A stretch of DNA of 64,000 nt from Candidatus Yanofskybacteria bacterium (GTDB taxonomy: Bacteria; Patescibacteriota; Minisyncoccia; 2-02-FULL-40-12; IGHO2-01-FULL-4-A): the NCBI GenBank assembly GCA_016181175.1, contig JACOZV010000004.1, forward strand, positions 7,718 through 71,717, read 5' to 3'. The position numbers and the translations under genes were made by a program. This document shows positions 123-59,332 of this stretch, one piece after another. Under the pieces are notes generated by a model. It saw only the letters and a program-made list of their open reading frames with translations, did no database searches and was not told the origin of the DNA. The first letter of the stretch is position 1. Every line of letters starts with the position of its first letter.

Positions 123-195
123 GGCGGGGGCGTCCCGACTCGAACGGGAATTGACGGTTTTGGAGACCGTAGTCCTGCCATTGAACGACGCCCCC
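123..195 (-). tRNA. trnW: tRNA-Trp (anticodon CCA)
   Basis: The reverse complement folds as a cloverleaf. Acceptor GGGGGCG/CGCCCCC; anticodon stem ACGGT/ACCGT; loop CTCCAAA; T-stem TCCCG/CGGGA; discriminator G followed by CC. Confidence 0.85.
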
Positions 196-198
196 AAA

Positions 199-224
199 AT
201 AGTGCTTAAGGCACTATTTTTTTG
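199..224. terminator. hairpin atagtgc-ttaag-gcactat followed by T6-7
   Basis: Stem-loop plus T-run read directly. It sits between tRNA-Thr and tRNA-Trp. Confidence 0.45.
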
Positions 225-390
225 TTTCTTTGTGCATCACGTGCTTTCTGCAAAACTTGCAGAATTTCTTCATTTCGATTGTCCGCGTAACCAGTTTCTT
301 ATTTTTCGTAGAAAAATAATTGACTTGCTTGCAGATGCTGCACTTTAATTTTATTAGGTTATCTTGGGACATATTGTTTATTATTAACTT

Positions 391-465
391 TGGAGCCAGC
401 GGTCGGAATCGGACCGACGCTCTTTCCCTTACCATGGGAGTGCTTTACCACTAAGCTACGCTGGC
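391..465 (-). tRNA. trnT: tRNA-Thr (anticodon GGT), CCA encoded
   Basis: The reverse complement gives GCCAGCG-TA-GCTTAGTGGTAAAGC-A-CTCCC-ATGGTAA-GGGAA-...GTCGG-TCCGATT-CCGAC-CGCTGGC-T-CCA, a full cloverleaf. Confidence 0.85.
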
Positions 466-506
466 ATAATACCATGGAGTTGCTCTTCCACTGAGCTACA
501 ACGGCC
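466..506 (-). pseudogene. diverged duplicate of a tRNA-Thr(GGT) 5' half (acceptor, D-arm, anticodon stem-loop) with no 3' half
   Basis: The reverse complement is GCCGTTG-TA-GCTCAGTGGAAGAGC-A-ACTCC-ATGGTA..., parallel to the intact tRNA-Thr directly downstream. There is no matching 3' acceptor strand. Confidence 0.5.
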
Positions 507-520
507 TCACACCTACTTAG
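503..520. repeat. left arm of perfect 18-bp inverted repeat GGCCTCACACCTACTTAG
   Basis: Exact reverse complement of 781..798. It contains the TAG stop of the GIY-YIG ORF. Confidence 0.9.
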
Positions 521-776
521 CTTCAACAACACAATTCTTAATTCGCCTTTTAAGTTGCAGGTATGCGTTTCCTCTCAATTTTATACTATATTCTCTATGC
601 TTGGCATCTCCTTGCGAATAATAACTTTCATAGTATATCAGCCACCAAGGAATATTCAACTTTGTGGCTTTAACCAAACCAAAATTGTGTTGTTGGAATC
701 TTAACGTAAGATCGTGGGTATAGCCAAAGTATAATTGGCCATCTTTTTTACTTTTCAAAACATAAAAATAATACAT
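513..776 (-). CDS. GIY-YIG nuclease family protein (small stand-alone YhbQ/UPF0213-like), 87 aa
   Basis: The motif MYYFYVLKSKKDGQLYFGYTHDLTLRFQQHN matches the GIY-(x10)-YxG...R...H/N signature. The ORF extends to a TTG at 800 only because it reads through the inverted-repeat arm. The internal ATG at 776 is the likely start. Confidence 0.75.
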   Translation of the reverse strand: MYYFYVLKSKKDGQLYFGYTHDLTLRFQQHNFGLVKATKLNIPWWLIYYESYYSQGDAKHREYSIKLRGNAYLQLKRRIKNCVVEAK

Positions 777-780
777 AAAG

Positions 781-798
781 CTAAGTAGGTGTGAGGCC
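781..798. repeat. right arm of perfect 18-bp inverted repeat
   Basis: Reverse complement of 503..520. Confidence 0.9.
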
Positions 799-838
799 AA
801 CGGCCTTTTTTATCAACATTTTTTAACTTTATTTTTAT

Positions 839-854
839 TCTGTGGGGGCGGTAG
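839..854. repeat. 16-bp direct repeat TCTGTGGGGGCGGTAG, a copy of the tRNA-Tyr 3' end (T-stem 3' strand, acceptor 3' strand and discriminator)
   Basis: Identical to 1039..1054, which is the genuine 3' end of tRNA-Tyr. Confidence 0.85.
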
Positions 855-1036
855 CGTTGAAAACCAACTGCTTGGTTTTCAACGGGAATTTTAGCTTTGC
901 CTTGTGCGAATAGCACGGCAAAGCGTTATAAAAATTCCCATGCACCGTATTCGCTAAAAGCGAACTTGATGCAAATCTGCTGCTTCGCAGCAAGTCCAGA
1001 AACATAATCGCCGTAGGTAGTTATGTTTCTGGACTC
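855..1036 (-). other. hairpin-rich 180-nt segment between the two tRNA-Tyr 3'-end copies
   Basis: At least five strong hairpins: 855-884 (12-bp perfect stem), 883-941 (nested 9+8+4 bp), tcgctaaaagcga, gctgcttcgcagc, and 1003-1036 (14-bp stem). No ORF. Confidence 0.4.
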
Positions 1037-1038
1037 TA

Positions 1039-1054
1039 TCTGTGGGGGCGGTAG
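1039..1054. repeat. 16-bp direct repeat (native tRNA-Tyr 3' end)
   Basis: See 839..854. Confidence 0.85.
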
Positions 1055-1126
1055 GATTTGCACCTACGTAGGCACAAGGCCAGCAGATTTACAGTCTGCC
1101 CTCGTTGACTGCTTGAGTACACCCCC
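1042..1126 (-). tRNA. trnY: tRNA-Tyr (anticodon GTA), long variable arm
   Basis: The reverse complement gives GGGGGTG...GCAGA-CTGTAAA-TCTGC, a 15-nt variable arm, GTAGG-TGCAAAT-CCTAC, CGCCCCC and discriminator A. Confidence 0.85.
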
Positions 1127-1142
1127 TATTTTGGCCAACCGA

Positions 1143-1217
1143 TGGAGCCGACCCCGAGATTCGAACTCGGAACCTACGCTTTACAAAAGCGTTGCTCTGC
1201 CGTTGAGCTAGATCGGC
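1143..1217 (-). tRNA. trnT: tRNA-Thr (anticodon TGT), CCA encoded
   Basis: The reverse complement gives GCCGATC-TA-GCTCAACGGCAGAGC-A-ACGCT-TTTGTAA-AGCGT-AGGTT-CCGAG-TTCGAAT-CTCGG-GGTCGGC-T-CCA. Confidence 0.85.
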
Positions 1218-10296: not shown

Positions 10297-12393
10297 TTAC
10301 TGATTCGTTTTAGGATTTAGATAGCCCTGAAGCTGGTTTAAATAGTTTGTGGTGTCATAGCGGTCCGGATCAAGATATAAAGATTTTTGAAACGAGTCTT
10401 CCGCTTTTTCAAACTGACCAGTCCTGAAATAAGCTAGACCAAGCCACATATAACTCTCTGGGGTTTTCTCGCCCATATCAATCGCGTTCTCCAGAAAAAT
10501 AATCGCCGAAATTAAACTCTGGGGATCATTCTTCCACACTTTAATAGAACCCATATACAACCAAACCCAGCTGTTTTTAGGATATTCGGCCACTACTTTT
10601 TTCAAGACAGAAGTGGACAAATTTTCACTGCCCATTAAATAAATAAACCGGCCGGCAATAATTCTATCTAACACATCATCGGACGTCAGCATGTGGTTAA
10701 TTCTCTCGTTGAGATTTCCAGGAGTACTAAATTTATTAATAACTTCACTGTTCTGAGGAATGTTTCTCAAAAGAATTACTGCATAAGAATCAATATAAAC
10801 TAATGACCATAATGGATCGCGCAAGCGCCTCAATAAAAAACTTCCCACAACCGGACTTCCGTCCCGCAAACTTATAAATATCGCGTTCAGGTTATATTTA
10901 TCCCGCGCTTCAATCCATTTTTCTTCACTTGATAGCGCCGGTATGAAAACATCATCAAAAAAAGAAACAGGATAAGAATCGGCTCCATTGTTGTCAACAA
11001 AAACACGCTCTTTAGGAAATAAGTGATAAATAATATAACCTCCGATATCATAATCATTAAAAATAGGACCTTTTAAGTTATTATTCTTGAAAAATTCTCC
11101 GGCATCATTTGAGTGGCGACCTAATCCAATGCCCCAGTCATTCTTATATCCCCGCGAAGCCGCATCCGCATTCAAATCATAAGCCTTATAAGGATAAACA
11201 GCAGAGATAATGACAACTAAACTATACCCTAACACGACTGCCAATTTTGGCCTTTTTTGCCTTAACCAATTTTTTATCGCAAGAAAAACACCATTAAAAT
11301 TAGACGAAACCGCGGGTAAAAATATAAACGCAAAAAGAGTAATTAATCTAATTTGGTTAAGTCCCGCGACGGCGCTAGCAAGTCCGGCCAATAAAAAGAA
11401 TATCGGTTTGTTTTTGTAGCGAAAACCAAAAATGGAACTAAAAAGAAAAATAAATACCATGGGCGCAAATGGCGAATTGAAAATATCCCACGAAAAAATA
11501 CTGGCTTTCAAATTAAAAAATGGCTGGTTTTCGCTTACCGAAAATGAGGCATAGTGAAATTTAATTTTAAGCGGAGCAAGCGCTCCTTCTAAGCCGTTGG
11601 GGTTGATAAATATTACAGCGAACAGTATAAACAGGACCGAAAGTAATTTTTTAACCACCGGATCATTTCGCAAATTTTTTAAATTTATTCTCCAATCCGC
11701 CAGCCGCCCGAATTGGCGGAGGCGGATTTTGGGCATATATAAAACAACTTTCTCAAACAAAAATCCGGCAACCAGAACGATGCCGAGAAAAAAGAAAAGA
11801 TGAAAATTAACCCACAAAAGCTGAAGCGGAATAAGCCAAAAAATCCTTTTTCTTTCCGGATGTTTTTCCAGGTCAAACAGCAAATAAAGAAACAGGGCGA
11901 GAAAAAGATAACTGAACATTTCCGGCCGTATTCTGTTGCGGCCCGCCAAGATCAAAATAGTCGGCAAAGAAAAAACCGCCACCAACCAAAAGTTAGCTTT
12001 TTTCATTGCTGCAATAAAAAGAATAGCGAAAGCGGAAAGAAGAATCGCGGTTTTTAAAATAGTCAATGCCCCAAAGCCGAAGATTTCGGACACGAGATAA
12101 AAAACAACGCTACTCATCCAGTGATGGTCGTATACAGGATGGTCCGGCACCGTAAAAGAATAGATGTTATTTCTAAATACATTTTGAGTTTCCCAAATCG
12201 TTTTGCCGTCCATAATATACAGACCGGTGTCGTTATCCATGTGCGGCAAACTTATCTTAATAAGCAAAAAAGAGGCATAAAAAGCCAGAATGATAATAAA
12301 AATCAGAATTTTCTTATAATCGGCGGGAATCAAATTCTTCATAAAACATTTTAGAGATAGCGCCAATGACATTGGAAAGTTTTTCAATGTCAT
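10297..12393 (-). CDS. polytopic membrane protein, GT-C-type glycosyltransferase-like, with C-terminal TPR repeats
   Basis: More than 10 predicted TM helices. The C-terminal TPR region includes YMWLGLAYFRTGQFEKAEDSFQKSLYLDPD. The start is uncertain (internal Mets at 12372 and 12342). Confidence 0.5.
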   Translation of the reverse strand: MTLKNFPMSLALSLKCFMKNLIPADYKKILIFIIILAFYASFLLIKISLPHMDNDTGLYIMDGKTIWETQNVFRNNIYSFTVPDHPVYDHHWMSSVVFYLVSEIFGFGALTILKTAILLSAFAILFIAAMKKANFWLVAVFSLPTILILAGRNRIRPEMFSYLFLALFLYLLFDLEKHPERKRIFWLIPLQLLWVNFHLFFFLGIVLVAGFLFEKVVLYMPKIRLRQFGRLADWRINLKNLRNDPVVKKLLSVLFILFAVIFINPNGLEGALAPLKIKFHYASFSVSENQPFFNLKASIFSWDIFNSPFAPMVFIFLFSSIFGFRYKNKPIFFLLAGLASAVAGLNQIRLITLFAFIFLPAVSSNFNGVFLAIKNWLRQKRPKLAVVLGYSLVVIISAVYPYKAYDLNADAASRGYKNDWGIGLGRHSNDAGEFFKNNNLKGPIFNDYDIGGYIIYHLFPKERVFVDNNGADSYPVSFFDDVFIPALSSEEKWIEARDKYNLNAIFISLRDGSPVVGSFLLRRLRDPLWSLVYIDSYAVILLRNIPQNSEVINKFSTPGNLNERINHMLTSDDVLDRIIAGRFIYLMGSENLSTSVLKKVVAEYPKNSWVWLYMGSIKVWKNDPQSLISAIIFLENAIDMGEKTPESYMWLGLAYFRTGQFEKAEDSFQKSLYLDPDRYDTTNYLNQLQGYLNPKTNQ

Positions 12394-13303
12394 GACCGCG
12401 CGTCATTACGCAAAGAAGGTACGGATTTTTAGGGTAATATACGATACCGCAATCATGGAGTTGTTTTATGCCACCCTCAAACCCGGTTCGCTCCCCGAAT
12501 TTATGCGCTACCGAAATTTCGGGGGGAACCCCAGCTACAATACCAATATTAAAATCTGTATTTGCCAGAAATTCTAATGTCTTTTCTGAAGTTTCTTTAT
12601 TCCTAAAAAATGATGCGTGGTAAAGCTGAATAAATATTGAGGAGTATGATTTTACGCTTATTACTTCGTCACGCTCTCCTCTTGGACTGACAATGCCCAA
12701 ATCTTGAATCGTTTCAGTAAAAACATCTGTATTTGGATAGGCCTGAATTAAATATTTAGTCAAAACAATGTATGCCTTATTGTCAGAATATTTAATCAGA
12801 CGCTTAAGCAAATCGTTTACAGAATAAGATTCATTTTCTTGAATTGATTCTTTTGGAGAAATTAATTGCTCAAAAATCACTTCTTTTGTCGTATGGTATG
12901 TTAATTTTTTTTCGAGCAACTCTGGTTTGTCCTCGGCAAAATTTAAATAGGTTATAAGCAGGGGCACCTTAAGTAAGCTGGCCGGGGCAAAAACGGCATG
13001 GTCATCAATACCCAGTGTCGGACCGCTCACAAGGTCTCTAAAATAAATGGACACATTAGTAATTTCTTTCTCTTTTATTTTAGAATCAATGAATTCTTCA
13101 ATCCTGCTCTTTAAGTCAGCATAAGCATGTTTTTTTATAACAAAAGAGTTATCGCAAGCCAGTTCTTTATTAATAAATTTAAACCTAGATTGATTACAAA
13201 AAAGATTAATATCAATAATATTAAATTTGTTTGCCAAAAATCCTCCTCCAAAAAGAATGAAAATAATAAGAAGGGTATTTGAAAACCTAAACCCAAAAAG
13301 CAT
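12314..13303 (-). CDS. class A beta-lactamase-like serine hydrolase (PBP fold)
   Basis: SxxK (PASLLKVP), SDN (YSDNKAY) and a degenerate KTG-like box (HKFGERTG), after an N-terminal TM/signal segment. Confidence 0.55.
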   Translation of the reverse strand: MLFGFRFSNTLLIIFILFGGGFLANKFNIIDINLFCNQSRFKFINKELACDNSFVIKKHAYADLKSRIEEFIDSKIKEKEITNVSIYFRDLVSGPTLGIDDHAVFAPASLLKVPLLITYLNFAEDKPELLEKKLTYHTTKEVIFEQLISPKESIQENESYSVNDLLKRLIKYSDNKAYIVLTKYLIQAYPNTDVFTETIQDLGIVSPRGERDEVISVKSYSSIFIQLYHASFFRNKETSEKTLEFLANTDFNIGIVAGVPPEISVAHKFGERTGFEGGIKQLHDCGIVYYPKNPYLLCVMTRGHDIEKLSNVIGAISKMFYEEFDSRRL

Positions 13304-13339: not shown

Positions 13340-15337
13340 TTAAGTGTCCGGTGAAGTTTCCGAAAGCGGAGATTCTTCTGACGGAGGCGGCTCTGGCGTT
13401 GCTTGCGGTAAGCTTGTTGAATCCGGTTCAGGAGTTGGCTCTTCCACTGGAGGTTGAACCTCTACTTGAGGTTCAACCTCGGCGGATGGCGTAGGTTCCG
13501 GAGGTGGCGATTCTTCTATTATTGGCTCCGCCGTGGACTCTTCGGATACGGATGGTTCTGATTCTGAAGTCGGTTCTATGCTCGACTCCGGAGTTGCCAA
13601 AGATTCGTAATCTTTTGAAGGAATTGGCGTCGGTTCTGGCTGTGAATTATTGAGGATACTCGGAATAACCGAACACTCACCCGGTATGTGAACCAGTTGT
13701 CCCCTTGTCATTCTTACGCAATACGGCTCCCCTGTTTCGGTATCATAAAACGTAATGCCGTTTGGCCGGTCTCGACTCCCTATGGTTAGCGAGTCGGCTT
13801 TAAGCGCCCCTGAGAAAAACGCATTACCTAAACTGTCAAAGGTAATTACCGGCGGACCAGTGCCTCGCCCCAAGCTTGAAGGACCAAATGAAGTAGAGAA
13901 TGAATCTGAAGCAACATTGAAAATACTAAATACGCCGCCATTGGCCAATTTAAACCCGACATCATCATCCACCGGCTCAATGATGTTCACGACCAGCGTA
14001 TCAGTTAAGACCCGCGGTGAAATAATTTCCAATCCGGCTATTATTCTATCAGTATATATTTCCGACAAAGATGTGCTGGCTGTTATTTCCTGCTTGTGAC
14101 TTAACATCTGGGCCAGTACCAGGCGCCCGATATCAATATCTTCTGGTATCTCATCCATATTGACCCCATATTTGCCAAGAACCGACTTTGTCCTGGCTCC
14201 GGTAGAATATGTTGTGGAAATGAACATTAAGATTTTACCTTGGTCTTCAGGAAAACCATCAGATTGGCTAGCAACACTGACGTCAAAATCTTCCAATGCC
14301 GAACCAATTATTAATCCCGCTTTATCAGTCCTTACTGCGACACCCGGAACATCGGATGCGGTAAGCAAATCGCCTTTTTTAATTTCACCATTTGCAGTTG
14401 AAACCTTAACAAGCGCCGTTCCCGACAAAGCTACGGGTTGGGTATCCGACGGCCTTTGGTCGTTCAGGTCTTTATTCATTATTTGAAATGGATCAGTAGA
14501 GATAACCCCAACTACACGGTCTTCAGGGGTTGCTTTTTTAAGAACTGCTGTTTTCTGGAGACCTTGTTTTGAGTCATATGAGGTGTCATTGGGGCCTACA
14601 GCCACCACATCACCGGGCTCTACACCATCTTCAACCACGAAATATTCTGCCAAGTCGGAACCATTGGTACCCGAAAGAGCCCAGACGATAACTGCACCGG
14701 CTGCTCCGGCGGCACCTTTTCCAAGGTTTGCAGAACCACCGCCTCCAGCGCCACCTGGAGCTGCTCCGATTGTTCCATTGCCATTATGAGCTGAGCCAGC
14801 CCCCGAACCCCCGCCGCCACCCGCACCACCCATCGGACTTCCTCCACCATCGCCGCCACCGGCGCCGGCAACTGCGGCAAAACCTGAACCGCCATTGCTT
14901 CCGCTTAGATTTAAGGTACCGCCAATTGCACTCCCCCCCACACCACCAACACCATTGGCAAGTCCTAATCCCCCGCCATTACCTTGAATATTAGCCCCAC
15001 CATTAAGTGCGCCTGTAAATCTGCTTAAATTTCCAACAACTCCGACGGTGCCACCGGTACCAACAACGATAGACACATTTCCGTTGACAGCCGTTATTCC
15101 CGCACTATACCCACCACCACCACCACCACCACCACCGTTTATCGCCGCAGCATTATTTCCACCAGCACCGCCGCCCCATACTTCCACATAAACCTGATTA
15201 ACATACGCCTGTTTAACCCAATTGCCATTAGCAGTGAAGGCGTTTATAGCTTCAATACCAAATCCCGCATCACCGCTACCAGCAGAGGTATCATCATCAC
15301 CACACGAAAATTTTCCTGTTGTTATATCCCAACCCAA
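13340..15337 (-). CDS. glycine-rich tail-fibre-like protein, C-terminal segment (frame C), with Pro/Glu/Ser-rich tail
   Basis: ORF call; the 'start' is a TTG artefact. This frame stays open upstream to about 15495 (PDPGFNFDSSLYIFDISKGLHALAALTSVGSASFNGG...). It contains long GGxGG tracts. Confidence 0.55.
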   Translation of the reverse strand: MGWDITTGKFSCGDDDTSAGSGDAGFGIEAINAFTANGNWVKQAYVNQVYVEVWGGGAGGNNAAAINGGGGGGGGGYSAGITAVNGNVSIVVGTGGTVGVVGNLSRFTGALNGGANIQGNGGGLGLANGVGGVGGSAIGGTLNLSGSNGGSGFAAVAGAGGGDGGGSPMGGAGGGGGSGAGSAHNGNGTIGAAPGGAGGGGSANLGKGAAGAAGAVIVWALSGTNGSDLAEYFVVEDGVEPGDVVAVGPNDTSYDSKQGLQKTAVLKKATPEDRVVGVISTDPFQIMNKDLNDQRPSDTQPVALSGTALVKVSTANGEIKKGDLLTASDVPGVAVRTDKAGLIIGSALEDFDVSVASQSDGFPEDQGKILMFISTTYSTGARTKSVLGKYGVNMDEIPEDIDIGRLVLAQMLSHKQEITASTSLSEIYTDRIIAGLEIISPRVLTDTLVVNIIEPVDDDVGFKLANGGVFSIFNVASDSFSTSFGPSSLGRGTGPPVITFDSLGNAFFSGALKADSLTIGSRDRPNGITFYDTETGEPYCVRMTRGQLVHIPGECSVIPSILNNSQPEPTPIPSKDYESLATPESSIEPTSESEPSVSEESTAEPIIEESPPPEPTPSAEVEPQVEVQPPVEEPTPEPDSTSLPQATPEPPPSEESPLSETSPDT

Positions 15338-15363
15338 TGTTTGGGTATCACCATCGCAATCAA

Positions 15364-16131
15364 CTAACCCCGAACCTCTGACTCCCCCGTTAAAGGAAGC
15401 TGAACCGACTGAAGTAAGGGCGGCCAGAGCGTGAAGTCCTTTGGATATGTCGAAAATGTAAAGGCTTGAGTCAAAGTTGAATCCAGGGTCAGGTCATCGC
15501 CGGTCAAGGTGAGATCGGTGCCGGCGGTAAGATTGGTGTGATTTGATATGTCTATGCCTTGGGAAGCTATGGTTAGGGTTGGAAAGGCGGTGAAAGTTAA
15601 GGCTCCGCCCAGACCGGCTAATACAGTGGCGCCGGCTGAATCATCCCACATGAAGAATCTGTCGGCGTTGGGGTCGGTAAGAGTGGCTCCAGTGCCGCCG
15701 TCGGCTAAAGAAACATCTGTGCCGCCGACTGTGTAGACGTTGGATCCGCCTATTGTAAGGGCGGAAACGCTGGCGGTTTTTATCTCAAGAGTATTACTGA
15801 ATTGATTGGAAGCGTTACTGAATGTCCAGCTTCCGGTGATAGTTTCATTGGCGGCACGACTTGCAGGACCGGTAGTCCAGTCTAATGTGATGGTGCCGTT
15901 GGAAGCGGTATTGCTGAAATTGAACATGTTAGCATCGAATTGTAAGGAAGCGATGGCGAAATATGTGCCGGCGGTTACGGCGATGTCTAAGCCGTCGGAA
16001 ACGTTGCCGCCTGAACCGCCGCCGGTATTCGGCGGAAGGCCAGGTATATGTAACGCCATTGAATGTGGTGGCGCCGGATATTGAGGCCGTACCGCCAACT
16101 TCAAAAGCGGTATTGGTAAGAGCACCCGCAT
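15364..16131 (-). CDS. tail-fibre-like protein, middle segment (frame B)
   Basis: Contains VSLADGGTGATLTDPNADRFF, which resembles the phage tail-fibre GGTGAT box. It overlaps frame A by about 200 nt. Confidence 0.5.
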   Translation of the reverse strand: MRVLLPIPLLKLAVRPQYPAPPHSMALHIPGLPPNTGGGSGGNVSDGLDIAVTAGTYFAIASLQFDANMFNFSNTASNGTITLDWTTGPASRAANETITGSWTFSNASNQFSNTLEIKTASVSALTIGGSNVYTVGGTDVSLADGGTGATLTDPNADRFFMWDDSAGATVLAGLGGALTFTAFPTLTIASQGIDISNHTNLTAGTDLTLTGDDLTLDSTLTQAFTFSTYPKDFTLWPPLLQSVQLPLTGESEVRG

Positions 16132-16834
16132 TAATACCCAGTTTTGAAAGTGTTGATGTTAACTCTAAACTTCCGGAAATTGAAGCGCTACTTCCAAAAC
16201 TCACAAATCCGTCAAATGAAACTGAACCGTCCACCTCAAGACCACCGGAGATTAGAAGATCGTTAGCGGAATAAATTGCATCGGAATGAGTCGTTGTCGC
16301 TGTCCCGAATCTTGAGTATGAAGCCGTAGTTAGTCCGCCGAACTGACCAACACCAGTCGCGTTCAAAAATCTCCCCCCGTGAACCGTCTCGGCGTTAACC
16401 GCAAATCCGGAAGCAACGATCCTTTGCCTGGGTGACAATGTTTCAAAGTCAACATTGTCATCAGACACCTGAACTTCCAAATAATAGGTCTGAGAATCAA
16501 AATCCAAATTTAACGCGCTATAACTGGCAGACGTATCACCAAGTAAAGTATTAAAAACACCTTGAGTAACTTTTATCGTTATCGCAGTTCCACCGGATGA
16601 CCACAACTCATTATCACCCGTTGCCGTAGAATGGATTTCGAACTTGAAATAAAAGTTAGTTCCGTTTCCGCCAAGAAGATTTCCAGAAGCATCAGCCAGC
16701 CGTCCTTGAAAACTTAAAATTTGAGGAACAGCAGCCGAAGAATGCCACGCAAAAAAAGTAAACGAAAAAACCGCAGTAATCAAAAACAGCGTGAAAAATC
16801 TTTTTAAAATTAAAATTTTCCCTCCTTGTTTCAC
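15929..16834 (-). CDS. tail-fibre-like surface protein, N-terminal segment (frame A) with signal peptide
   Basis: Signal peptide, then PQILSFQGRLADASGNLLGGNGTNFYFKFEIH...LWSS. The ORF ends in an Arg-rich out-of-frame tail (YRRRFRRQRFRRLRHRR), which marks a frameshift near 16035-16050. Confidence 0.55.
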   Translation of the reverse strand: MKQGGKILILKRFFTLFLITAVFSFTFFAWHSSAAVPQILSFQGRLADASGNLLGGNGTNFYFKFEIHSTATGDNELWSSGGTAITIKVTQGVFNTLLGDTSASYSALNLDFDSQTYYLEVQVSDDNVDFETLSPRQRIVASGFAVNAETVHGGRFLNATGVGQFGGLTTASYSRFGTATTTHSDAIYSANDLLISGGLEVDGSVSFDGFVSFGSSASISGSLELTSTLSKLGINAGALTNTAFEVGGTASISGATTFNGVTYTWPSAEYRRRFRRQRFRRLRHRRNRRHIFRHRFLTIRC

Positions 16835-17007
16835 TTATTAGAGAATAAATATATATTCCAATGAATTATATTTTCTCTAGTAATAATTTTAACATTAAAA
16901 CAAGCTTCCTGCTCGACTTTTATCCACAAGTTATTTTATGACATGAACGAAGACATTTTATAAGAATCCGGTTGCTTTATAAAATAAATTGTGATAATCT
17001 AATAATG

Positions 17008-17256
17008 ATGAAACCAGACATTCACCCACAATATTTTGACGCCACAGTCCACTGCGCCTGCGGAAATAAATGGAAAACCGGCTCAACAATGCCGGAGATT
17101 AGCGTGGAAATTTGCAGTCAATGCCATCCTTTCTATACGGGCAAAGAAAAAATGCTTGATACGCGAGGACGAGTTGATAGGTTCAAAAAAAGAATGGGAA
17201 AATCGGATGTTGCAATCAAAAGCAAAACCGTTAAAAAACCTCGCATCAAAAAATAG
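17008..17256 (+). CDS. rpmE: 50S ribosomal protein L31
   Basis: [27 protein letters not shown]...[10 protein letters not shown] carries the CxxC...CxxC zinc ribbon of L31. The called ORF starts at a TTG at 16972. Confidence 0.85.
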
Positions 17257-17277
17257 CTTGCCACCTGGCTCTCCTCA

Positions 17278-18168
17278 ATGCCAACAGCTGAAGAACTCAA
17301 AAAAGAACTTGATCAAATTCAAAAACAACTCGCTGATCCCGAGTTTGTTTTAGATTACAAGCGAGTAGCTGAAGCATCTAAGAGATATGCCGAGATTGAA
17401 CGATTGCTTTCCGGCGGCCAGTCAACTAACTCCGGGCAGGGCCGACAAGAAACTATTATTGAAATACGCGCCGGTACCGGTGGCGAGGAAGCGGCCTTGT
17501 TTTCTTCCAGACTTTTTGAAATGTACAAAAAATATGCCGAAACACAGGGTTGGCAAACAAGCGTCCTGGATTACAGTCAAACAACGCTTGGCGGTTATAA
17601 AAACATGGTCTTTGAACTGTCAGGAAAGGAGGTTTATAATAAAATGCGGTATGAGTCAGGCGTTCATAGAGTTCAACGAATTCCCGAAACCGAAAAAAGC
17701 GGACGCGTTCACACTTCAACAGCCACAGTGGCCGTACTCCCCAAAGCAAAGGAAACAGACTTGGAAATTAAACCTGAAGACCTTGAAATATCATTTTACC
17801 GCGCCGGCGGACCGGGAGGGCAAAATGTAAATAAAGTTTCAACCGCAGTAAGATTACTTCACAAACCATCCGGTTTAGTCGTCAGCTCGCAAAAGGAACG
17901 CTCCCAAGCGCGCAACAAGGAAAGCGCGCTGGAAGTCCTGCGATCCAAATTGTTGGATATCAAAAAACGCGAAGAAGTCGGAGCCGTTACCGAGGAACGC
18001 CGCAAACAGATTGGCTCTGCTGAACGCGCCGAAAAAATACGCACTTATAATTTCCCCCAAGACCGCATTACAGATCATCGCATCAAGAAAAGCTGGGGAA
18101 ACATAAGCAAAATACTGGACGGCAATCTTGATGTAATAGTTAATGCGTTGCTGAATATTAAAAATTAA
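17278..18168 (+). CDS. prfA: peptide chain release factor 1
   Basis: GGQ motif ([19 protein letters not shown]), an RF1-type PxT region ([22 protein letters not shown]), and the position after rpmE. Confidence 0.85.
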
Positions 18169-18294
18169 AAATAAAAGACTGGTTAATTTTATAATTTTTA
18201 ATTTTATAATTTTGTAAATAATTTCTAATGTTTAAAAATTAAAAACATTAAGATTTATTTAAAAATTAAAAATTGGAAATTAAAAATTACAAAA

Positions 18295-58747: not shown

Positions 58748-59188
58748 TTAGCAGGGGTAACCATTTGGACAAATATCTTCCTGTCGTTCGGTCGTCGGAT
58801 CAATAGGGGTGTTTAAGTCCGGCACGGTATGGTTGCGTGCCATCAACCACCAAACGAGAAGTATCCAAAATCCCCAAAATAAAACTACTGGAACAACTTT
58901 TGAGATGTTTTTCTTTACTCTGATTTTCAACGGAGGGTGAAGTACATGTTTAAGCTCATGGCTTGCTAAATCGCCGTACTCGATTTTCTCCACACACTTT
59001 GGACACGCAACAAATTCTTTCTGCTGCTCGGAAAAGCGCTTGTTTACTCTTGCCCAGAACCCCTCGTCAATAAATGGATTTCTATTTTTTCCGCTCATAG
59101 TTTTGTGAGCGGCGAGTTTTGAAACACAAAACCCACCACTGGGAGGGCTTGCGCCCCTATGGAAGTTTCCCTCCATAACGTTAGGCAC
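58748..59188 (-). CDS. hypothetical protein with CxxC motif and C-terminal TM helix
   Basis: ACPKCVEKIEYGD...; C-terminal VVPVVLFWGFWILLVWWLMA. Start uncertain. Confidence 0.4.
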   Translation of the reverse strand: MPNVMEGNFHRGASPPSGGFCVSKLAAHKTMSGKNRNPFIDEGFWARVNKRFSEQQKEFVACPKCVEKIEYGDLASHELKHVLHPPLKIRVKKNISKVVPVVLFWGFWILLVWWLMARNHTVPDLNTPIDPTTERQEDICPNGYPC

Positions 59189-59332
59189 GCCCCAAATGAT
59201 GGGTTTTCTATGCCTAACGATTTGCGACCATGCCGCCAGCCGAAGCCGATGGTTTAGATCATTTGATATCCAATTGTGTTTTTAAGTATATCAGAAAAAC
59301 ATGAGATCCTGCAACGGATGAAAAATACTGCT

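What the first reader, a model, noticed from the sequence alone, without database searches (positions are those of the whole stretch)
13340..16834. Tail-fibre-like glycine-rich giant gene (about 1150 aa) split into three overlapping frames
ORFs 15929-16834, 15364-16131 and 13340-15337 are consecutive pieces of one protein. It has a signal peptide, an N-terminal domain, a GGTGAT-box tail-fibre-like region, a long Gly-rich region and a Pro/Glu-rich tail. I traced both frame changes: one near 16035-16050 (the first piece ends in an Arg-rich nonsense tail), and one between about 15440 and 15500 (the third frame is open far upstream of its called TTG start). The gene is either a fresh pseudogene, has sequencing errors in repetitive DNA, or has programmed frameshifts.
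Basis: seen in the sequence. Interest (0 to 1): 0.5.

Follow-up and report, generated by a model that had tools for sequence, protein, structure and literature searches.

The report
Broken surface-fibre gene in a groundwater bacterium
Three overlapping reading frames are pieces of one phage-tail-fibre-like surface fibre gene of a tiny groundwater bacterium (Candidatus Yanofskybacteria); the gene is interrupted by two short losses of sequence, which are either a real inactivating mutation or a local assembly fault, and not a programmed frameshift.

Summary
The minus-strand ORFs 16834-15929, 16131-15364 and 15337(open from 15493)-13340 are consecutive pieces of one gene of about 1163 codons. The frame goes A, then B, then back to A, so the two shifts compensate: +1 at 16030, -1 at about 15456-15451.

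Homologues in Patescibacteria genomes and their phages are single ORFs of 700-2900 aa that read straight across both junctions. None of 31 other loci changes frame, so a conserved programmed frameshift is excluded.

These are not single-base slips. Against a colinear phage tail fibre (P0143), the window lacks 21 aa of the conserved YTWPSADG...LSW motif at junction 1. It lacks 11-12 aa of the conserved TGSxSFxGS motif at junction 2. That is about 62 + 34 = 96 nt.

Both lesions lie in or at the edge of a 0.6-0.7 kb stretch with foreign codon usage: third-position C is 0.51, against 0.17 in the rest of the gene. Independent assemblies of four sequencing runs match the flanks 100% but stop at 15382 and 16700.

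The protein has a signal peptide, a Bdellovibrio-MAT-like N-domain, fibre repeats, a glycine-rich domain and a phi29 gp12-type self-cleaving chaperone. Whether the break is a real disrupted allele (about 50%) or a local misassembly (about 43%) needs the reads. Interest is low to moderate.

The parts
13340..16834 (-). Whole fibre gene as it stands: about 1163 sense codons in three frame segments, stop codon at 13340-13342
   Evidence: ORFs and six-frame translation. Homologues cover all three segments. NCBI annotates only two of the pieces: HYT61_03410 (301 aa) and HYT61_03405 (665 aa).
16736..16834 (-). Signal peptide or N-terminal membrane anchor (MKQGGKILILKRFF-hydrophobic stretch-HSSA|AVPQ)
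   Evidence: Read directly from the translation. A charged N-terminus followed by a hydrophobic stretch is also visible in the printed sequences of P0001, P0002 and P0143. No signal-peptide predictor was run.
16400..16735 (-). Conserved N-terminal beta-sandwich domain (aa 34-145), a distant relative of the Bdellovibrio MAT N-domain
15380..16096 (-). Island of foreign codon usage. Third-position C is 0.48-0.51 inside and 0.17 outside. The 5' edge has support 16126-16075 and the 3' edge 15499-15371.
   Evidence: Change-point analysis gives an lnL gain of 46.7, against a maximum of 11.2 in 30 permutations. Codon tables: GGC 17 of 24 Gly codons against 2 of 28; GCC 17 of 23 Ala codons against 2 of 22. 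DNA homology to the closest N-terminal relative, L017, stops at 16077.
16027..16033 (-). Junction 1: frame A to frame B (+1). GCC(Ala268) - orphan G at 16030 - AAT(Asn). About 21 codons of the YTWPSADG...L(S/T)W motif are missing.
15457..16029 (-). Middle piece in frame B (191 codons). Modules GNVSDGLDIA...SLQFDA...LDW..GPASRA, SALTIGG..GGTDVSLADGGTGATLTDPNADRFFMWDD and DISNHTNLTAGTDLTLTGDDLTLDSTLTQAFT.
   Evidence: 748 relatives at E <= 1e-3 among 1.84 billion representatives. 55% identity to P0016 over the whole piece. NCBI has no annotated protein here: the locus tags on either side are consecutive.
15449..15459 (-). Junction 2: frame B to frame A (-1), inside ACA TTT TCG AC. 34 nt (11-12 codons of the T/N-TGSQxFxGS-V/L motif plus a frame change) are missing relative to P0018 and P0143.
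   Evidence: DNA alignment with L034 shows 14 nt between conserved blocks in the window against 48 nt in L034. Motif counts and protein alignment.
14657..15190 (-). Glycine-rich domain (YVEVWGGGAGG ... VIVWALSGTNGS)
   Evidence: Translation. PHROG 863 (category 'tail') covers aa 437-727, E 9e-9.
14150..14656 (-). phi29 gp12-type C-terminal intramolecular chaperone. The predicted self-cleavage site is Ser|Asp, immediately before DLAEYF at 14656.
13343..13651 (-). Pro/Glu/Ser/Thr-rich C-terminal tail
   Evidence: Translation. A similar tail ends the 2906-aa homologue in L027 and the sequence of P0086.

Best explanation
This is one gene for a long, mosaic, phage-tail-fibre-like surface fibre of a Candidatus Yanofskybacteria (Patescibacteria/CPR) bacterium.

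An intact version would be built as follows:
- a signal peptide;
- a conserved beta-sandwich N-domain that sits at the cell surface (inferred by analogy with Bdellovibrio MAT fibres);
- a shaft made of short repeated motifs that it shares with phage tail fibres;
- a glycine-rich distal domain;
- a phi29 gp12-type C-terminal chaperone that would help the fibre fold and then cut itself off at Ser|Asp before DLAEYF (inferred from fold and motif).

In the sequence as given, the gene cannot make that product. Two short stretches are missing from the shaft: about 62 nt inside the YTWPSADG...LSW motif at 16030, and 34 nt inside the TGSxSFxGS motif at about 15454. The first loss shifts the frame by +1 and the second shifts it back. 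Translation from the normal start therefore ends at 15929, after a 33-residue Arg-rich nonsense tail.

Both losses lie in or at the edge of a 0.6-0.7 kb cassette whose codon usage is foreign to the rest of the gene and to its neighbours. That cassette was probably brought in by recombination from another fibre gene.

My preferred reading is that these are real deletions in this allele, that is, a recently inactivated copy of a fast-evolving, recombining fibre gene, probably coexisting with other alleles in the population. This is only slightly more likely than a local misassembly of the same region.
For: Shown:
- One gene. Single-ORF homologues span both junctions.
- The frame pattern is -1/-2/-1 only in the window. 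All 31 other loci use a single frame.
- Conserved residues are missing exactly at the junctions. The window shows a 21-aa and an 11-aa gap against colinear P0143, E 2e-60. None of about 45 relatives has a truncated YTWPSA joined to the GGSGG module. 17 of 17 [DN][VI]SKG motifs are preceded by GSxSFxGS. The 34-nt deficit is measured on DNA against L034.
- Codon-usage island.
- Domain identities.

In favour of real deletions rather than an artefact:
- The flanks are reproduced at 100% identity by independent Logan assemblies of four runs.
- The rest of the 64 kb has no broken genes.
- There are no direct repeats of 14 nt or more at the junctions that could make a de Bruijn assembler skip sequence.
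- Losses of tens of bases are not a typical short-read error (my own knowledge).
- No stop codons have accumulated in the proper frame of any of the three segments, so the event would be recent.
Against: No read-level evidence is available.

- I could not retrieve any independent contig that crosses either junction. The Logan contigs of two runs both stop at 15382, and another stops at 16700. The assembly graph therefore branches around exactly this 1.3 kb, which is where a consensus path can be wrong.
- Both lesions fall within 573 nt of a 3.5 kb gene, at motifs that recur in many fibre genes of the same communities. They add up to a multiple of three (96 nt).
- The gene is otherwise undamaged.

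All of this is equally or better explained by a local misassembly. The two closest exact-product look-ups returned only the NCBI MAG itself.
Confidence: 0.5

Rival explanations
1. Local misassembly. The true gene in this organism is intact. The published contig dropped or mis-threaded two short, widely shared motif segments while passing through a strain-variable or paralogue-tangled part of the assembly graph. The C3-rich middle may even come from another allele or organism.
For: - Independent assemblies break on both sides of the region at identical coordinates in two runs: 15382 in L001 and L002, and 16700 in L005.
- Both lesions cluster in or at the compositional island.
- The missing pieces are the most widely repeated motifs of the family.
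- The net loss is 96 nt, so the flanks stay in one frame.
- No other decay is seen in 1163 codons.
- All other family loci are intact.
- MAGs of a similar origin (groundwater Yanofskybacteria) were made with MEGAHIT plus IDBA-UD scaffolding (PMC7906910). I could not confirm that this MAG belongs to that study.
Against: - A path switch at a shared k-mer keeps the reading frame.
- Skipping 62 or 34 nt would need exact direct repeats at that spacing, and none of 14 nt or more is present.
- There are no Ns in the window.
- The remaining 64 kb looks error-free, and 10.6 kb of it is identical in an independent assembly.
Confidence: 0.43
2. Programmed recoding. Ribosomes shift +1 at about 16030 and -1 at about 15454 and make a full-length fibre from this sequence.
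For: The two shifts compensate, and all three segments are free of stops in their proper frames.
Against: - None of 31 other family loci changes frame, including those with the same modules.
- Reading the sequence directly, I find no X XXY YYZ heptamer and no stop or rare-codon +1 motif at the positions fixed by homology.
- There is no stable RNA structure 3' of either site: z = -0.8 and +0.4.
- Even after shifting, the product would lack 21 and 11-12 residues of two conserved structural motifs.
Confidence: 0.02
3. Two single-base errors or mutations: an extra A in GCC GA(A) TAC C and a lost T in ACA TTTT CG. On this reading the absence of the 21-aa and 11-12-aa segments is natural in-frame variation of this allele.
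For: Removing one A restores ...YTWPSAD|TGGGSGG..., which keeps the family's PSAD. Adding one T gives ...AFTFFDISKGLHA... (and direct reading). Both sites are short homopolymers.
Against: No relative shows either shortened architecture (0 of about 45 and 0 of 17). Two independent one-base indels 573 nt apart would be unusual in short-read data, given that the other 60 kb is clean.
Confidence: 0.05

Closest known systems
Bdellovibrio bacteriovorus MAT (mosaic adhesive trimer) fibre proteins (Caulton et al. 2024, PMC10769870)
   Same: - A signal peptide is followed directly by a conserved beta-rich N-domain of about 110-130 aa, with sequence similarity to NF053851.
- The shaft is long and mosaic, built of phage-tail-fibre-like repeats.
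- The distal part is variable.
- Many members have a C-terminal self-cleaving chaperone.
- The bacterium lives on other bacteria.
   Different: - The N-domain match is below the curated cut-off (38 against 60 bits).
- The chaperone is of the phi29 gp12 (G2) type, not S74.
- The host is a Patescibacterium, not a predator.
- Trimer formation and surface display were not tested.
- This copy is interrupted.
Bacteriophage phi29 gp12 pre-neck appendage (tailspike) C-terminal autochaperone (PDB 3GQH/3GQK)
   Different: Upstream of the cleavage site there is a glycine-rich domain and a repeat shaft, not a gp12 beta-helix. Downstream there are about 280 more residues and a Pro/Glu-rich tail. Cleavage is inferred, not shown.
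Tail fibres of Patescibacteria phages (P0143 on a terminase-bearing contig L038; P0018 on L034; P0022 'YadA domain-containing structural protein' of Podoviridae sp. ctviO18, MN582093.1)
   Same: The order of modules is colinear across the whole broken region (joined aa 240-528 against P0143, E 2e-60). The motif vocabulary is the same.
   Different: The window gene is chromosomal, lying between rpmE/prfA and a beta-lactamase-like gene. It has the MAT-like N-domain and signal peptide, which the phage proteins lack. DNA identity is only 69-80%.
Frameshifted pseudogenes or phase-variable adhesin genes of host-associated bacteria
   Same: A surface adhesin-like gene switched off by out-of-frame length changes.
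   Different: There is no simple-sequence repeat tract at either junction. The length changes are 62 and 34 nt, not repeat units. No second allele has been seen.

Membership tests
Bdellovibrio MAT superfamily | Conserved beta-rich domain of about 130 aa immediately after the signal peptide (PMC10769870) | tested here: inconclusive
   NF053851 hits aa 26-107 at E 1.2e-9, but with 38 bits against a 60-bit cut-off. 24 of 27 relatives also hit it. The AF2 model is a confident beta-sandwich. No MAT N-domain structure exists for comparison (the paper says the same).
Bdellovibrio MAT superfamily | Trimeric intertwined beta-prism/beta-helix fibre displayed on the cell surface | not testable with these tools
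   Only monomer models were possible. Surface display needs experiment.
Bdellovibrio MAT superfamily | S74 self-cleaving chaperone (S74 subfamily) or an independent tip domain (NS74) | tested here: not met
   No PF13884 (S74) match in the window protein. A gp12-type chaperone is found instead. Some relatives (P0024, P0033, P0037) do carry PF13884.
phi29 gp12-type (MEROPS G2 / Pfam PF11962) intramolecular chaperone | Fold of the released C-terminal fragment | tested here: met
phi29 gp12-type (MEROPS G2 / Pfam PF11962) intramolecular chaperone | Conserved cleavage-site motif: Ser|Asp-x-Ala-Glu-Tyr-Phe at the start of the fragment | tested here: met
   GS|DLAEYF in the window against DFAEYF at residue 1 of 3gqh_A. 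D, A and E are invariant in 11 homologues. The Pfam model itself gave no hit at E <= 1. The profile-to-PDB sequence E-value is only 0.21.
phi29 gp12-type (MEROPS G2 / Pfam PF11962) intramolecular chaperone | Actual autoproteolysis | not testable with these tools
   Needs expression of the C-terminal region and a gel or mass spectrum.
Programmed ribosomal frameshift genes | Frameshift conserved in homologues | tested here: not met
   31 other loci all use a single frame. All the long homologues are single ORFs.
Programmed ribosomal frameshift genes | Slippery sequence plus a stimulatory element at the shift site | tested here: not met
   No heptamer or +1 motif at the homology-defined sites (direct reading). 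The 3' RNA folds are no better than shuffled sequence.
Phase-variable contingency genes | Simple-sequence repeat tract at the frame change | tested here: not met
   Only TTTT and a (CGG)3 run lie nearby. No tandem repeat or direct repeat of 14 nt or more at either junction.

The most novel reading that the evidence does not exclude
The 1.3 kb between 15383 and 16699 may be a swappable cassette of the host-recognition fibre that exists as several alleles in the same Yanofskybacteria population. On this reading, cassettes (here one with foreign, C3-rich codon usage) are exchanged with phage tail-fibre genes or other fibre genes. The out-of-frame copy would be a genuine OFF variant produced by imprecise recombination at the short shared motifs. 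That would be a recombination-based on/off and specificity switch for attachment in an episymbiotic CPR bacterium.
Probability: 0.1. Interest if true: 0.6.

Novelty: new member of a known kind. Interest (0 to 1): 0.28.

Why it matters
As a frameshift, this is ordinary: a broken or misassembled gene in a metagenome-assembled genome. NCBI currently annotates it as two unrelated hypothetical proteins with an unannotated gap between them.

The gene itself is of some interest. It shows that Patescibacteria, which live attached to other cells, carry chromosomal fibres with three features together:
- an N-domain related to that of Bdellovibrio MAT fibres;
- shaft modules shared with their own phages' tail fibres;
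- a phi29 gp12-type self-cleaving chaperone.

Such fibres are candidates for host recognition, about which little is known in this group. The foreign-codon cassette and the assembly breaks around it suggest that this part of the gene is exchanged or polymorphic in nature. Existing reads can test that.

Tried and rejected
- **Exact-product look-ups.** I looked up ORF1, ORF2 and ORF3 with many alternative starts, plus guessed partial products, hoping to find independent contigs across the junctions. Only the NCBI MAG's own two proteins are on record.
- **Collection scans.** Scans of GTDB species genomes and JGI metagenomes did not find the source or a near-identical strain. The best hit was 59% aa identity.
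- **Strict orthologue by synteny.** P0005 and P0016 lie in unrelated neighbourhoods. Only L027/L028 shares the downstream beta-lactamase-like gene, next to an intact 2906-aa homologue.
- **Paralogue or template copy inside the window** (as for a diversity-generating retroelement or silent cassette). None was found.
- **Local repeats that could explain slippage or an assembler shortcut.** None of 14 nt or more lies at the junctions.
- **Domain and sequence searches.** Pfam, and PDB by sequence, gave nothing significant for any piece. tblastn against INPHARED phages gave no match.
- **Source study.** I tried to confirm that the MAG and SRA runs belong to He et al. 2021. The run numbers were not found in the held supplementary text.
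- **A -1 slip on CCA AAG.** I considered and rejected it because frame A already matches the family consensus (D-I-S-K-G) upstream of that site.
Full report
**Observation**

On the minus strand, ORFs 16834-15929 (301 aa, GTG start), 16131-15364 (255 aa) and 15337-13340 (665 aa, TTG start) exist as described.

Their frames, taken as the end coordinate modulo 3, are 1, 0 and 1. The first and third pieces therefore share a frame and the middle piece is displaced by +1, so the two frame changes compensate.

The sensible part of piece 1 ends at ...GATTFNGVTYTWPSA and is followed by a 33-residue Arg-rich tail. The first 36 residues and the last 30 or so residues of piece 2 are out-of-frame readings of pieces 1 and 3. 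Piece 3 is open from 15493.

No other pair of same-strand overlapping out-of-frame ORFs occurs in the 64 kb, which otherwise carries clean ORFs of up to 1231 aa. The window has no Ns.

**Source**

Piece 1 is identical to MBI2063252.1 (HYT61_03410). Piece 3 is identical to MBI2063251.1 (HYT61_03405). Both are from 'MAG: Candidatus Yanofskybacteria bacterium', on a contig of 126,662 nt, and both are singleton clusters. The locus tags are consecutive, so the middle piece is not annotated.

The genome is not among the GTDB species representatives or the JGI metagenome contigs that I could scan.

Logan assemblies of four SRA runs reproduce the flanks at 100% identity:
- L001 covers window 15382-4729.
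- L002 covers 15382-9659.
- L005 covers 16700-18244.

Two contigs from different runs end at exactly 15382 and one ends at 16700. I could retrieve nothing between those points.

**One gene**

A conceptual join of 1163-1164 aa finds long single-ORF relatives (700-2000 aa) in Patescibacteria MAGs and their phages.
- P0007 aligns across both junctions.
- P0006, P0011, P0014, P0005 and L017 align across junction 1.
- P0018, P0009, P0027 and L006 align across junction 2.

A full HMMER scan with the middle piece alone finds 748 relatives.

blastx of 31 other loci with family proteins shows a single frame in every one. Only the window goes -1/-2/-1.

A 2906-aa intact homologue in L027/L028 is followed by a beta-lactamase-like gene that is 44% identical to the window's downstream neighbour. 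This is the only synteny I found.

**Anatomy of the junctions**

*Junction 1.* GCC (Ala268, 16033-16031), then an orphan G at 16030, then AAT ACC GGC GGC GGT in frame B.
- In the family, G(V/I)TYTWPSA always continues DG..(N/Q)x(V/L)LxTxGxGxL(S/T)W.
- The module that follows in the window (GGSGGNVSDGLDIA...SLQFDA...LDW..GPAS) is, in about 45 relatives, always preceded by a complete ...W..G.FSCG.D or Y.(W/F)P..DG...L.W motif. It is never preceded by a truncated YTWPSA.

*Junction 2.* This lies inside ACA TTT TCG AC (15459-15449).
- The DNA alignment with L034 (gene of P0018) leaves 14 nt between conserved blocks in the window and 48 nt in L034. That is a 34-nt deficit.
- The missing residues are TNTGSQ(T/S)(F/M)TGS(V/L). 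All 17 [DN][VI]SKG motifs in the family set are preceded by GSxS(F/M)xGS(L/V).

*Colinear comparison.* The phage tail fibre P0143 (745 aa, on a contig with a terminase, L038) is colinear with joined aa 240-528 (E 2e-60). It shows exactly two gaps in the window: 21 aa at junction 1 and 11 aa at junction 2.

Taken against these relatives, the losses are about 62 nt and 34 nt, or 96 nt together. This is why the outer frames agree.

A minimal alternative exists: one extra A in GCC GA(A) TAC and one lost T in TTTT, with the shorter architecture being natural. It cannot be excluded, but it has no precedent among the relatives.

**Compositional island**

Third-position C is 0.49-0.51 in codons 247-459. 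It is 0.14 in the N-terminal 246 codons, 0.17-0.22 downstream and 0.20 in nine neighbouring genes. GGC and GCC dominate the Gly and Ala codons only in this stretch.

A two-change-point model places the island at 16096 to 15487-15380:
- The 2-lnL support for the start is 16126-16075.
- The 2-lnL support for the end is 15499-15371.
- The lnL gain is 46.7, against a maximum of 11.2 in 30 permutations.

Junction 1 is therefore about 66 nt inside the island. Junction 2 and the Logan contig end at 15382 fall within the support interval of its 3' edge.

DNA similarity to the closest N-terminal relative, L017 (75%), stops at 16077.

The relatives whose DNA I hold are not C3-rich (0.15-0.32), so the donor is unknown. 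The family as a whole is visibly mosaic: identical short motifs appear in different orders in different proteins.

**What the protein is**

- **Signal peptide or anchor.** Residues 1-33 look like one (direct reading).
- **N-domain.** Residues 34-145 form a confidently predicted beta-sandwich (pLDDT 85-96) with only generic Ig-like PDB neighbours. The domain hits NCBIfam Bdello_MAT_N at E 1.2e-9, below the curated cut-off, as do 24 of 27 relatives. The MAT paper states that all MATs carry such a domain directly after the signal peptide and that it has no PDB homologue (PMC10769870).
- **Shaft and Gly-rich domain.** PHROG 863 (category 'tail') covers aa 437-727.

I infer a fibre that folds with the help of this domain and then sheds it, as gp12 does. 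This is inference from fold and motif only.

**Cause of the break**

*Programmed recoding* is very unlikely. The shift is not conserved, there is no slippery or +1 motif at the homology-defined sites, and no 3' structure (z = -0.8 and +0.4). The shifted product would still lack conserved motif residues.

The real choice is between genuine deletions and a local misassembly.

For genuine deletions:
- The surrounding sequence is accurate and independently reproduced.
- No repeats could make an assembler skip these stretches.
- A path switch at shared k-mers would preserve the frame.

For misassembly:
- Independent assemblies cannot cross this 1.3 kb and stop at identical points.
- Both lesions sit within 573 nt, in or at the foreign-composition cassette.
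- The missing pieces are the motifs most widely shared among fibre genes.
- The net loss is in frame.
- The gene shows no other decay.

I put real deletion (a recent pseudogene or OFF allele) at about 0.50, misassembly at about 0.43, two single-base changes at about 0.05 and recoding at about 0.02. Read mapping from the four named runs would settle the question.

**Verdict**

The finding is an interrupted member of a known kind of protein, namely mosaic, phage-tail-fibre-like surface fibres. It is not a new mechanism.

The modest points of interest are:
- the MAT-like N-domain and gp12-type chaperone in a Patescibacterium;
- the modules it shares with Patescibacteria phages;
- the foreign-codon cassette, which coincides with the damage and with the assembly breaks.

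Noticed in passing
window 59144-59260 (-): Rfam LOOT RNA (RF03000) match, 71 bits against a gathering score of 46. It partly overlaps the start of a 146-aa ORF (58748-59188).
   Followed up: no
window 123-1217 (-): Cluster of four tRNA genes: Trp-CCA, Thr-GGT, Tyr-GTA and Thr-TGT.
   Followed up: no
window 17278-18168 (+): The release factor 1 gene (Pfam PCRF and RF-1) is only 296 aa, about 60 residues shorter than typical RF1 (the typical length is from my own knowledge). It lies just downstream of rpmE (about 17005-17256). A 105-aa ORF (17036-17353) overlaps both.
   Followed up: no
window 15364-16131 (-): NCBI's annotation of this MAG has consecutive locus tags for the two outer pieces (HYT61_03405 and HYT61_03410). 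The 570-nt middle piece carries no annotated protein, and the gene is not flagged as a pseudogene in the protein records I saw.
   Followed up: yes
window 12314-12393 (-): The beta-lactamase-like gene (12314-13303, PF13354) and the downstream 698-aa TPR membrane protein (10297-12393) overlap by 80 nt as longest ORFs. The gene caller used for L001 gives a 691-aa product (L001 3011-5086) that still overlaps the beta-lactamase-like gene (L001 2080-3069) by 59 nt.
   Followed up: partly
L027/L028 5798-20732: A JGI contig carries an intact 2906-aa family member, then a beta-lactamase-like gene (44% identical to the window's), then a further 1659-aa ORF. The fibre gene and a serine-hydrolase-like gene may be a conserved pair.
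   Followed up: partly
L036 11199-14869: Next to the 1534-aa homologue P0005 (GCA_003151795.1) lie genes with dockerin (PF00404) and cohesin (PF00963) domains. This hints at a surface-assembly neighbourhood.
   Followed up: no
alignment A1 (family N-domains): One family member also gives a weak hit (E 0.0034) to NCBIfam NF058579, 'CPR-type pilus protein PamT'.
   Followed up: no
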